Of a DNA stretch of 64,000 nt, positions 1-38,826 are shown in pieces. The translations under genes and the position numbers were made by a program. Below the pieces are notes generated by a model. That model ran no database searches, was not told the origin of the DNA, and was given only the letters and a program-made list of their open reading frames with translations. The stretch's first letter is position 1. Each line of letters opens with the position of its first letter. The DNA is from Eledone cirrhosa (Eukaryota), in contig OZ024747.1 of NCBI GenBank assembly GCA_964016885.1, positions 28,830,001-28,894,000 on the forward strand, read 5' to 3'.

Positions 1-1914
1 GAAAGAAAGTTCAAGCATGTTCTACAACGTGAGGACCAAAAACGTGAGGTGTTCAGGATTGCCAGGCAATGTGTCAAGGAAAACCGTGATATTGTCGGGG
101 AGAAGTGTGTACTTAACGATGATGGCATACTTGCCATCACCGACGCTGATAAGAAGGTAGCTTGGAAGTGTCACTACGAAAGGCTTCTAAATGAGGAGAA
201 CAAATGGGAGAAAGACAGTCTCCCCCAGATCGATCCAATAGAGGGACCAGCAGTGTTAGTTGAAGGTAGTATAATAAGTAAGGCAATCAAAGATATGAAG
301 ACGGGTAAGGCGGCTGGGCCTTCGGAAATAGTTGCTGAGATGCTGAAGGCATCTGGTTCGGTGGGACACACCATGGTCACCCGGATAGTTAACCAAGTCG
401 TACAGAATGGGGTTGTTCCGAAGGAATGGCGTAGCAGCATCATCGTTAACTGCTATAAGGGAAAAGGAGATGCCCTAGATAGGAGTAACTATAGAGGCAT
501 TAAATTAATCGACCAGGTCATGAAGGTCACGGAAAAAGTAATAGCGCAACTAATCAGAGAGAGAATTGATCTAGATGAAATGCAGTTCGGGTTTGTGTCA
601 GGCAAAAGTACCACAGACGCTCTTTTCATTGTACGACAACTACAGGAGAAGTACCTAGCTAAAAGTAAACCCCTATACTTAGCTTTCGTCGACTTGGAGA
701 AAGCCTTCGACAGAGTCCCCCGTTCCATTATCTGGTGGTCTCTTAGAAAACTAGGTGTTGACGAATGGCTTGTGAGAGCTATACAAGCCATGTATAAAGA
801 AACAGTCAGTAAGGTTAGAATTAACAACGAATATAGTGAAGAGTTTAGCGTAAAAGTTGGTGTCCATCAGGGCTCTGTTCTTAGCCCCCTACTATTTATT
901 ATTGCCCTTCAGGCTATAACAGAGGAGTTCAAGACCGGCTGCCCATGAGAACTCCTATACGCAGATGATCTAACGCTCATAGCTGAATCAAAGACCGAAC
1001 TAGAGAAGAAATTCCAAACATGGAAGCACGGCCTAGAATCAAAAGGCCTTAAAATTAACCTGGCTAAGACTAAAGTTCTAGTTTGTAGGAAAGAAAATAA
1101 GGCGGCGGTCCCATCTGGGAAATGGCCATGCTCAGTGTGTAGGAAAGGCGTAGGTAGAAACTCCATTTTATGTCCCAAATGCAAAGTATGGGTGCATAAA
1201 AGATGTAGTGGGATCACAGGTAAGCTAACTAAGAACATAGATTTTACATGTGGCCGGTGCTCTGGTGCAATAAGTAGCAGCAAGTGCCCACAAAATACTA
1301 GCTCCTTCAACTGCGCAGAGGGTTCTATAGAAATAGTGGACAGCTTCCGTTATCTGGGTGACAAAATCAGCAGTGGGGGAGGGTGCTCTGAAAGTACAGT
1401 AGCTAGAGTCAGAACTGGATGGAAAAAGTTCAGAGAGCTTATACCACTATTAGCCGCTAAAGGGTTCTCCCTAAAAATGAAAGGCAGGTTATATGATACC
1501 TGCATACGAACAGCAATGCTGCATGGCAGTGAGACCTGGGCATTGTGTGCAGAGGATATACGCAGACTAGAGAGGAACGAAGCTTGCATGCTCCGCTGGA
1601 TGTGCAATAGTAATATACGTGAACGGCAAAGCATAAACGAACTAAGGAAAAAATTAGAAATAAGAGGGATCAGATGTTGTTTACTCGAGAGAAGGCTACG
1701 TTGGTACGGTCACGTGATGCGCATGAAAGACGACAGCTGTATAACAAAGTGCAGGGCAATAAAGATAGACGGTAGCCACGGAGTAGGCAGACCCAGAAAA
1801 ACATGGGACGAGCTGATAAATTCCGACCTCACACGCTTACACCTCTCCAAGACAATGTCACTGGACCGAGACCTTTGGCGGTACTCAGTAATAGAGAAGA
1901 CCCGCCTTACCTAA
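1..1914 (+). pseudogene. RTE reverse transcriptase ORF with one nonsense codon (TGA 946-948, Trp expected) and an internal PHD-type zinc finger
   Basis: ORFs 49..948 and 1135..1914 are in the same frame; sequence reads GCP*ELLYADD. C4HC3 pattern at 1129-1260. Confidence 0.9.
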
Positions 1915-8810: not shown

Positions 8811-11055
8811 AAAAGCAGTCACTTTTTGCAATTAATGTGACAATTAAAAAATTCGAATATTTCAGATTAGTCGCTTTTTTTTTAAAAATAACTTAATGGA
8901 GGAGGTGGGAGAGGGGTTATTATATGTTGACATGGTTTCAATGTAAAAGTATCCAACCATTGTATATTAAGTGAGGATGACGGTGATATGGTTATGGATG
9001 CTCACATATACACAACAGAGCAATAATGACTGTTTCCTATTGCAAAGTTGACGAAAACAATGACATCTTGGATTTCCGAGTTCGTTCGTGAATCGGAGAA
9101 AAAAATTAATATTCCTTTTATAGATCTTTACTAATTAATCACCGATAAATGTATTACATATTGGTTACTTTACACGCCACACTACTATAATCACCATCAC
9201 CACAACCACTGCTACAATCGCAATTCCTAAATACACCCTCCTCCATCACCAGATTCCGTCTCTCAATTTCTGACCTATTTCATGTAACTGGGAGTTTTGA
9301 TGTTCATGCATTTCTAGAAACTAAACAAATCACCGTTAGTTTTAAAATTCAGATAAATAAAGTATATTGTAGGAGAGGGTCGAGTGAATCTAAAAAAGAA
9401 TTTAGGGTGGGTTACAGTTGTTTGACGTTTCTGGAAGAGAGGAAGAGGACGAGAAGAAAAAAGAAAAGAACCAGTATATCGACAAATTATTCAACTAGTA
9501 GTATGCACGGTGTTTATTTTAGCTTAGGCATGCCCCCCCCCCCCCTTCTCTGTCTATCTAACACAGACATATACAAGTGTTTGAGAGAGACTAGTGACTT
9601 AATCTGCAAGTCAATTACTCTTGGGTCTCAAATAATCGACCCCCCCCCCTCCCCATATTAATTTTTCAGTTTTTTTTCCACCCCTCGTTAATTAAAGTTT
9701 ATAAATCTATCTCCAGTGAAAATTTATTTTAAGTCGTACCATTCCTGCGACAATTAATTTTCTTTATGCATTAAAAACATTCCACATGACAAAAAAAGTA
9801 CATTACTAGAAATCCCCTGTTATAAAATAAATAAGGGTGGGTTGGAGTGTCAATATGTAAACTAAACGTGATTTTTTTAAATCATCAGAGACAACCTAGA
9901 AACATTACCGATTTTCCATCCCCACTCACCCCGCTTATTCCAACCCCGTCCCCTGGGAGTAATAATAATATATGACAATAACCATATCCCCTCGATCACT
10001 AATAATTATATTCAGCTTTTTTTATAATAGAAACCGCAGAGAGATATGTTGTAAACATTACCATTAAATCGACGAATAATGTGTGCGTCTGTGTGTATAT
10101 ATTAAATGGTGGTGTAGCAATAAACATGTGGTGAAGACATCTGAGCACCTTAGTTAATTGAAGGTACAACGGAGAGAGAACAATGGATTTACGACACACA
10201 CTGGCATCAATATCGTGATATGCCAGCTGCACCATACAACTACAAGTGGAAGTAGAGAGATAGTAAATTAGACAGAGGAGAGAAGATATAGATAGATTAA
10301 GAGGCAGGAGGAAATTATAATCACTTCTAGCTTAGTCAGACGTGGACAAATAAATCCATCTAGTCGTTTATAATCTTTACAACATACACACACATTATAT
10401 ATATATAGAGAGAGAGATATATATATACACACACACACACACACCAAAAATACACACGCACACATACGTGTACGAACGAAAGAAAGTAATGAGCATCCTA
10501 TGCATTATGTTCAGAGTTCATATTTATAAGTAAACAGTTGATTCGTTTACACATGTCAAATCCATTCCATTGCTTCTCTCAACACTACATTGTCTCCTGG
10601 TCAAATATGACGAGCAGACAGAGATGAAATGGCAAAGCTGAAATTTTGAAGTCACTGTCACTTTTCTACTCAAATAATAAAATTTATTCTCTAACACGCA
10701 TTGAGTGTTCATTTAGTTAATGTTTGAATACACACAATAATTCAAGGGTAAGAAATTGTCTAAGACAAAGTTATCCGCTCAGATCTTATGTCATTGCACC
10801 TATATAATGGAAATACCTTTGTCTAGACAATTTTTTAACTTTGAATTATTGTTACTGCTCCTAATGAAAATTTTTAATTTTTATATTAATAGAGCCGACT
10901 TTAGGTTCTAATAGTGACTATCTTTAACACTTTGGTTAACTTATTTTTGTCAGACAATGTGACCAATAATTTTACGTATTAATCAATATATACACACACA
11001 CACACACACATTAATTCAAAATATTAACAGAATTGATATTCTTGTGATCAAGTAT

Positions 11056-11119
11056 ATTTTAATATACATATTTCAGAGGTACTGAGTTAACTTCAACAGT
11101 ACGTCCTCATCAGATAAAA
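11056..11119 (-). ncRNA. Type I hammerhead ribozyme motif (inverted copy, one stem I mismatch)
   Basis: Reverse complement of the 11133-11193 motif. Confidence 0.65.
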
Positions 11120-11132
11120 TAAAATAAATTAC

Positions 11133-11193
11133 TTTATCTGATGAGGACGTACTGTTGAAGTTAACTCAGTACCTCTGAAATATGTATAATAAA
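11133..11193 (+). ncRNA. Type I hammerhead ribozyme motif
   Basis: UUUAU-CUGAUGA-GGACGUACUG(loop)CAGUACCUCU-GAAA-U-AUGU-A-UA^AUAAA. Confidence 0.75.
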
Positions 11194-11372
11194 ATATACT
11201 TGATCACAAAAATATCTATTTAATATTAATAACTCCGGAAAACCATTTTTGTTGAGTGCTTCCAATCTATTCTAAAACTCATTTTTTGATTTATTCATTG
11301 AACCTTGTTTAACCTTTAAATACACACACATATATATATATATACATATACACACACAAACACATATATATA

Positions 11373-24872: not shown

Positions 24873-25232
24873 ATACACACACATTATATATATATATACA
24901 CACACATACAACGTAAACACTTTTTTTTATCAGAAGCTTTCGTTTGAAAGAATGGAGTGTAAACACTTTCCACTATTCCTCTGTACACAGAAAAACATTA
25001 CATATTTCGGAGAGATTGTCTTTTCACCTGAATATAACTATTTATATGATTCTATATAGAGAGGAATATTTAGTATACAGCAATACTATATATGTCAAGC
25101 AGGATGTAAGCTTGAGTGGTCAGTCGATTTTGCACGTCGTGTATTCGTTTGGCAATGTGCTTAATTAATCAAATATTAGATCTGCGGTATATATATATAT
25201 ATAGTTATGTAATAAACAACATAAGGCAATTA

Positions 25233-25292
25233 TTCCATTTACCAGTGGTTTCTTAAAAGCAAAAAATGTTGCTTTCAATCATCAGAATGAAA
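25233..25292 (-). ncRNA. Type I hammerhead ribozyme, apparently intact
   Basis: UUUCAUU-CUGAUGA-UUGAAAGCAA(CAUUUU)UUGCUUUUAA-GAAA-CC(ACU)GG-UA^AAUGGAA. Confidence 0.85.
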
Positions 25293-25355
25293 AAATCCTG
25301 GTCTATTTATTGATTTTGGATTCTAAAAACAAAAATGCAATCTATATGAAAGTGA

Positions 25356-25423
<68 letters not shown>

Positions 25424-25657
25424 CTTTCGTCAAATCGAACCGAAGAAAGAATGTTTCCGTTGGTCTTTCCAATTAATACTATCTATCGGTCGCAACTCCA
25501 GGTAGAAGGAGCAACGTGAAACAGTGTCTTGCTCAAGGAAATAATCCATCACCCGGTCCAGGAATCGAACTCACAATATATATATATATATATATGTTGA
25601 GATCTAGCTGTCGAAACGGCCGGAGCTCAGCCGTCGGGGCCCTGACGCTTTTCCTAT

Positions 25658-25857
25658 NNNNNNNNNNNNNNNNNNNNNNNNNNNNNNNNNNNNNNNNNNN
25701 NNNNNNNNNNNNNNNNNNNNNNNNNNNNNNNNNNNNNNNNNNNNNNNNNNNNNNNNNNNNNNNNNNNNNNNNNNNNNNNNNNNNNNNNNNNNNNNNNNNN
25801 NNNNNNNNNNNNNNNNNNNNNNNNNNNNNNNNNNNNNNNNNNNNNNNNNNNNNNNNN
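25658..25857. other. Assembly gap (200 N)
   Basis: Run of n. Confidence 1.
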
Positions 25858-38765: not shown

Positions 38766-38826
38766 TATTTTATTATACATATTTCAAGGGTACCAGTATT
38801 TTGGTATGCTATCGTCAGATAAAATA
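38766..38826 (-). ncRNA. Type I hammerhead motif (same family as 11.1 kb)
   Basis: UAUUUUAU-CUGACGA-UAGCAUACCA(AAAUAC)UGGUACCCUU-GAAA-U-AUGU-A-UA^AUAAAAUA. Confidence 0.75.

What the first reader, a model, noticed from the sequence alone, without database searches (positions are those of the whole stretch)
25233..25292. Canonical-looking compact hammerhead forming most of a ~135-bp insert between two (TA)n tracts
Seen: 7-bp stem I (one G·U), 10-bp stem II, 3-bp stem III with ACU loop, intact core and GUA cleavage site. (TA)n lies at about 25188-25203 and 25339-25420. This is the best candidate for monomeric activity. The insert is little more than the ribozyme, like a minimal retrozyme or truncated PLE end (inference).
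Basis: partly seen in the sequence, partly recalled or inferred. Interest (0 to 1): 0.75.

Follow-up and report, generated by a model that had tools for sequence, protein, structure and literature searches.

The report
Hammerhead tail of a Penelope-like retrotransposon
This is a real hammerhead-ribozyme motif, but it is only the clipped-off end of a common jumping gene (a Hydra-clade Penelope-like element with thousands of copies in this genome) and is predicted to fold better as a pair than alone, so it is an ordinary member of a known kind.

Summary
The type I hammerhead is there, on the minus strand, and stem II shows compensatory changes across sister subfamilies. The insert is 155 bp (25204-25358), not 135. 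It is not a free minimal retrozyme: it is the 5'-truncated 3' end of a Penelope-like element. All 29 other close copies examined extend further 5', and about 8,500 core-intact motif matches exist in the genome. Intact parents encode a 710-aa RT plus C-terminal GIY-YIG-type protein with the Hydra-clade motifs; the (TA)n tracts match that clade's insertion target. Published Hydra-clade hammerheads share this architecture. The 'monomer' claim is weak: stem III is a pseudo-palindrome and the double-hammerhead fold is about 9 kcal/mol more stable. One oddity: the 4.3-kb parent carries two hammerheads, the inner one mostly with a GUG site. No sharp peak of 5' ends at the cleavage site and no circle-junction chimeras were found. 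The scan's notes held nothing relevant. New member of a known kind.

The parts
25204..25358 (-). 5'-truncated insertion: last 155 nt of a Hydra-clade Penelope-like element (3' UTR / pseudo-LTR end, short 3' terminus without the tail)
   Evidence: 98-100% identity over full length to the 40 best-scored of 1868 genomic candidates; 29 of 29 other copies continue 5'; 93.5% to HH2 of an intact unit
25233..25292 (-). Type I hammerhead motif (the terminal hammerhead, HH2, of the parent element)
   Evidence: descriptor scan, shuffle control, pair counts on 23 relatives
25241..25249 (-). Stem III / loop 3 pseudo-palindrome ACCA-C-UGGU: 3 bp plus triloop as monomer, 4+4 bp intermolecular helix as dimer
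   Evidence: sequence; cofold; same ACCA-N-UGGU form in Hydra-1_oBim
25239..25240 (-). Predicted self-cleavage site after GUA (untested)
   Evidence: hammerhead numbering; GUA occurs in natural hammerheads (PMC1636495)
25188..25203 (.). (TA)8 tract at the 3' junction, likely the cut target
   Evidence: 18 of 30 close copies end at this same point and run into (TA)n
25359..25420 (.). (TA)31 tract at the 5' truncation junction

Best explanation
The 155-bp insert is the 5'-truncated 3' end of a high-copy Hydra-clade Penelope-like retroelement, likely written into a (TA)n microsatellite by target-primed reverse transcription that stopped early, and its hammerhead is the parent's terminal ribozyme, predicted to fold best as a double hammerhead. 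Shown: family membership, copy number, parent anatomy (terminal hammerhead - about 230 nt - 710-aa ORF - about 400 nt - inner hammerhead - 1.1 to 1.5 kb of microsatellite-rich spacer - terminal hammerhead), two fixed 3' ends about 65-70 nt apart, conservation of core and stem II. Inferred: the endonuclease nicks (TA)n, RT starts 36 nt (or about 100 nt) 3' of the cut site on RNA that is uncleaved there, and falls off after 155 nt. Inferred: in the parent the ribozyme is a weak, dimer- or protein-assisted processor of tandem transcripts; the lone copy here has no partner, no ORF and no known promoter, so it is most likely inert.
For: 1868 candidates, top 40 at 98-100%; 5288 + 3250 core-intact motif matches, 0 in reversed controls, some double-counted. 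Upstream of other copies lie the shared leader, a second hammerhead and the ORF. 18 of 18 loci chosen for long frames hold a 713-715-codon frame; 17 of 18 have both hammerheads behind it; tandem spacing 4.25-4.33 kb. ORF has RWK, DKT, CxCx5C, CxxC, CxH and lacks DKG and CX2-5CxxC, the Hydra diagnosis of PMC8557442 section 11; by eye it resembles Hydra-1_Obim. Published Hydra hammerheads show the same unpaired or variable base after CUGANGA, U-A start of stem II and ACNN-N-NNGU stem III (File S2). 3' ends: 18 short, 12 with the tail, of 30, like the two RT start sites of PMC11167929. 5 of 11 stem II pairs change on both sides; N7 takes all four letters while the rest of the core holds. Dimer favoured by 9 kcal/mol; metazoan PLE hammerheads are weak and dimer-type in vitro (PMC4209133).
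Against: No cleavage assay and no RNA data. Covariation is partly shared ancestry: the pair-count measures were not beyond shuffles (56/500, 85/500) and 10 or so rows were chosen by a core-and-stem-III pattern, so stem III invariance says nothing. Clade assignment rests on motifs and by-eye comparison, not on a tree with reference sequences; Pfam and PDB gave no hit for the ORF. The monomer fold is within 0.1 kcal/mol of the minimum in isolation with stem III pairing near 0.4, sturdier than minimal PLE hammerheads, so monomer activity remains possible. No target-site duplication can be read inside (TA)n.
Confidence: 0.88

Rival explanations
1. The motif is an efficient stand-alone (monomeric) hammerhead, so this solo copy would cut any host transcript that runs through it on the minus strand.
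For: 3-bp stem III with two C-G pairs; monomer fold -10.1 kcal/mol, stem III pairing 0.37-0.40 in isolation; GUA sites work in natural hammerheads; core conserved.
Against: Pseudo-palindromic stem III and 9 kcal/mol dimer gain; stem I probability about 0.01 in the 155-nt context; no G10.1-C11.1; thousands of genomic copies, this one included, were reverse-transcribed straight through the site, and 13 of 18 full-length copies also read through the upstream site.
Confidence: 0.25
2. The insert is a non-autonomous minimal retrozyme that spreads as a small circular RNA.
For: Type I hammerhead, high copy number, low GC; retrozymes are proposed to derive from PLE pseudo-LTRs (bioRxiv 10.64898/2026.07.22.740005).
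Against: No fixed 5' end (29 of 29 others extend); retrozymes are tandem arrays of 150-450 bp units (PMC7229834) and none of this unit was seen; 0 junctions of the kind a spacer circle would leave, against 49 normal inner hammerheads.
Confidence: 0.04
3. The hammerhead is a non-functional relic carried along by the element.
For: No sharp peak of 5' junctions at the cut site (8 of 87 at +/-1, 4.7 expected, p=0.09); cleavage was dispensable in vitro for the anole PLE; Naiad PLEs thrive without canonical hammerheads; the inner copy decays.
Against: Terminal copy keeps core and A17 in 39 of 39 ORF-selected reads while N7 changed; compensatory changes in stem II across subfamilies whose loop II differs wholly; the motif is kept across the Hydra clade.
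Confidence: 0.15

Closest known systems
Hydra clade of Penelope-like elements, closest Hydra-1_Obim (Craig et al. 2021, PMC8557442; section 11 and supplements S1, S2 seen)
   Same: C-terminal endonuclease ORF of about 710 aa with RWK, DKT, CxCx5C, CxxC, CxH; (TA)n insertion; type I hammerhead near the 3' end with variable base after CUGANGA, long stem II and ACCA-N-UGGU stem III.
   Different: A sister family, not Hydra-1_Obim itself (different ORF and hammerhead letters, compared by eye). Unit is 4.25-4.33 kb against under 3 kb, has clear pseudo-LTR tandems, a microsatellite-rich spacer and two hammerheads per unit; File S2 lists one per element apart from inverted or pLTR copies.
Minimal hammerheads of metazoan PLEs (Cervera and De la Pena 2014, PMC4209133; first half of text seen)
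   Same: In PLE terminal repeats, long helix II, palindromic helix III, mostly scattered as single truncated copies, often in close inverted pairs.
   Different: Here helix III is 3 bp plus a triloop rather than absent or 1-2 bp, and the conserved G10.1-C11.1 pair is missing.
Anole Poseidon PLE PAc (Frangieh et al. 2024, PMC11167929; first half of text seen)
   Same: Two RT start sites defining a short end and a tail; AT-rich targets; copies made from RNA uncleaved at the hammerhead.
   Different: Other clade; there the hammerhead overlaps the ORF start, here it lies about 230 nt upstream; tail about 65-70 nt against 30-40.
Non-LTR retrozymes (PMC7229834, passages seen; bioRxiv 10.64898/2026.07.22.740005, parts 1-2 of 5 seen)
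   Same: Type I hammerhead, low GC, no ORF in this copy.
   Different: Not a tandem unit; variable 5' ends; continuous with an autonomous ORF in other copies.

Membership tests
Type I hammerhead ribozyme | CUGANGA / GAAA / UH core with helices I-III, helix I open | tested here: met
Type I hammerhead ribozyme | Canonical G10.1-C11.1 pair closing stem II | tested here: not met
   U-A here; not paired in 10 of 23 relatives; published Hydra-clade motifs also vary here, so this is the Hydra variant, not the canonical form
Type I hammerhead ribozyme | Structure kept by compensatory change | tested here: met
   5 of 11 stem II pairs, 1 of 7 stem I pairs; covariation 0.171 vs 0.120 shuffled, relatedness caveat
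Type I hammerhead ribozyme | Self-cleavage after H17 | not testable with these tools
   indirect genomic test inconclusive
Hydra-clade PLE (parent element) | Single ORF, RT followed by C-terminal GIY-YIG-type endonuclease | tested here: met
   710-aa ORF with YRDD at 346 and YVG at 594; no Pfam hit
Hydra-clade PLE (parent element) | RWK and DKT motifs, CxCx5C linker, CxxC and CxH, no CX2-5CxxC | tested here: met
   against PMC8557442 section 11
Hydra-clade PLE (parent element) | Insertion into (TA)n; tandem/inverted pseudo-LTR structure; optional tail | tested here: met
Hydra-clade PLE (parent element) | RT phylogeny groups with Hydra references | not tested
   reference sequences were only readable in a supplement; compared by eye
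Neptune / Nematis PLE | CX2-5CxxC linker and DKG motif | tested here: not met
   neither found
Non-LTR retrozyme | Head-to-tail repeats of a 150-450 bp hammerhead unit with no linked ORF | tested here: not met
Non-LTR retrozyme | Expressed as circular RNA | not testable with these tools
   no RNA holder listed

The most novel reading that the evidence does not exclude
This family has turned a self-insertion into a built-in partner: the inner hammerhead keeps its catalytic core but has lost its own cut site (GUG), so inside one transcript it can pair with the terminal hammerhead as an asymmetric double hammerhead that cuts only at the element's end. It would be a natural one-way, enzyme-only hammerhead and would let a single PLE unit process itself without a tandem neighbour.
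Probability: 0.15. Interest if true: 0.62.

Novelty: new member of a known kind. Interest (0 to 1): 0.3.

Why it matters
The solo copy matters little: it is one of thousands. The family is a useful test bed, because what PLE hammerheads do in vivo is unsettled and no cleavage data for Hydra-clade hammerheads turned up in my searches. It has many intact young copies, a non-canonical stem II base, and a natural pair of hammerheads per unit, one with GUA and one with GUG, so monomer, homodimer and heterodimer can be compared directly.

Tried and rejected
Rfam: no hammerhead match. Pfam and PDB: no match for the ORF; 1342 homologues exist but nearly all unnamed. First guess of Neptune clade dropped after the motif test. 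Lead that 5' ends of copies mark the cleavage site: L054 and L051 start there and 39 copies match that pattern, but among the first 100 of 311 truncated copies re-fetched (9 dropped as intact, 4 outside the range, 87 tallied) 8 fell at the site +/-1 against 4.7 expected (p=0.09); a post hoc 6-nt window gave 16 vs 9.3 (p=0.02 uncorrected) and other windows held as many: inconclusive, not used as support. Circle-junction chimera (terminal 5' flank joined to inner 3' flank): 0 found, with an exact-match pattern. One search was swamped by a subfamily with a longer loop II and was not used for counts. RNA: no RNA holder listed; laid contigs only confirm a high-copy repeat. The scan's own notes had nothing near and one unrelated hit.

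Full report
Observation. The flanking tracts are (TA)8 at 25188-25203 and (TA)31 at 25359-25420, so the insert is 155 bp. Rfam gives no hammerhead match, the 60-mer folds no better than shuffles (z -1.03), and stem II starts with U-A rather than G-C.

It is a repeat. The 155 bp returned 1868 candidates in the own genome; the 40 scored were 98-100% identical. Core-plus-stem-III patterns count 5288 and 3250 matches, 0 in reversed controls, with some double counting. In the 30 loci fetched, all 29 other copies continue 5' into a shared pyrimidine-rich, then microsatellite-rich leader; the window's copy alone breaks at 25358. At the 3' end 18 of 30, the window's included, stop at the same base and run into (TA)n, and 12 carry a further tail of about 65-70 nt.

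The parent. Further upstream lie a second hammerhead and an RT-endonuclease ORF. A protein search gave 150 scored copies at 93-100%. In 18 loci picked for long frames, all hold a 713-715-codon frame and 17 show ORF - inner hammerhead - spacer - terminal hammerhead; tandems repeat every 4.25-4.33 kb, the terminal hammerhead sitting about 230 nt before the next start codon. The 710-aa protein has RWK, DKT, CxCx5C, CxxC and CxH and lacks DKG and CX2-5CxxC. PMC8557442 (passages, section 11 and supplement parts seen) gives exactly these as the marks of the Hydra clade, with (TA)n targeting. Its File S2 lists Hydra hammerheads with a variable base after CUGANGA and ACNN-N-NNGU stems III, including ACCA-A-UGGU in Hydra-1_oBim. 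By eye the ORF is a sister of Hydra-1_Obim; no tree was built. A cephalopod host is a likely inference from that, no more.

Is the structure under selection? On 23 relatives 90.7% of cells pair and 6 of 21 pairs change on both sides, 5 in stem II; the covariation score beats all 500 shuffles but the pair-count measures do not (56/500, 85/500), and rows are related and partly pattern-selected. N7, the one free core position (recalled rule), takes U, G, A and C. In ORF-selected loci (some overlap, so counts are not independent) the terminal hammerhead keeps core and A17 in 39 of 39, while the inner one has G17 in 40 of 40 and an intact core in 36 of 40; in an older set 38 of 49 inner copies have G17 (counted by eye). 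G17 blocks cleavage under the NUH rule (recalled).

Monomer or dimer. In isolation the monomer fold (-10.1 kcal/mol) ties with the minimum, stem III pairing about 0.4; in the 155-nt insert stem I falls to about 0.01. Two copies as a double hammerhead score -29.2 against -20.2, and the cofold minimum is that fold (concentration not modelled). Natural inner-terminal pairs gain 8-9 kcal/mol too, in 7 of 7 pairs from 6 loci. PMC4209133 (first half seen) found metazoan PLE hammerheads inactive alone and weak as dimers; PMC11167929 (first half seen) found the anole one protein-assisted and dispensable in vitro, with two RT start sites that define the tail. GUA sites are natural (PMC1636495, passages).

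Genomic traces of cleavage. Two copies start at the predicted site and 39 match that pattern, many behind inverted segments. The unbiased test was inconclusive: 8 of 87 junctions at the site +/-1 against 4.7 expected, other windows as full. 13 of 18 full-length copies read through the upstream site, 1 starts at it, 4 lack it. No spacer-circle junction was found (0, against 49 normal inner copies). No RNA run was available.

Mechanism. Shown: a truncated terminal fragment of an abundant, recently active PLE between (TA)n tracts. Inferred: nicking of (TA)n, RT start 36 nt 3' of the cut site on uncleaved RNA, early stop after 155 nt. Inferred: the ribozyme works weakly, as a dimer or with the element's protein, on tandem transcripts, and this solo copy is inert. 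The inner hammerhead has the same anatomy as the window's insert (a truncated 3' end between microsatellites) and is likely a captured self-insertion; it may be decaying neutrally (3 of 40 have a changed A6, stem II mismatches accumulate) or may serve as an enzyme-only partner, the most novel reading, at about 15%.

Verdict. Real motif, known context: new member of a known kind, interest 0.3. Searches for prior work on this clade's hammerheads returned only the 2021 description; papers outside the library, Repbase entries and bioRxiv supplements were not seen and may already describe this family.

Noticed in passing
window 24500 (+), 39985 (+), 47473 (+): Three related minimal-type hammerhead-like cores (CUGAUGA, short stem II, GAAAC) of another repeat family; 24500 and 39985 share downstream sequence.
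   Followed up: no
window 11031-11220; related copy near 38818 (-): 92-nt inverted repeat carrying two back-to-back hammerhead-like cores of a third family, the usual inverted PLE insertion shape.
   Followed up: partly
window 25590-25657 (+); also L004: GAAAC followed by a hairpin ending in GUC, like the 3' half of a hammerhead with a long stem III but without a matching core nearby; cut by the assembly gap at 25658-25857.
   Followed up: no
window 25421-25575: Very high-copy SINE-like repeat next to the (TA)31 tract (depth); unrelated to the insert.
   Followed up: no
window 1-1911 (+): Two long frames of a LINE-type reverse transcriptase, also seen in L032 and L040.
   Followed up: no
L133, L151, L200; also G000 C14:16886884, C22:9295554, C26:12648891: Head-to-head fold-back copies joined at the stem III pseudo-palindrome or just 3' of the cut site, a possible template-switch hot spot.
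   Followed up: partly
L036 808-3162 (+), L031 2803-4416 (-), L033 9487-9999 (-): Other, more distant Hydra-like PLE families in the same genome, one with an intact 784-codon frame.
   Followed up: no
L101-L110: Older sister subfamilies with longer stem II and different loop II; whether they carry one or two hammerheads per unit was not settled.
   Followed up: partly
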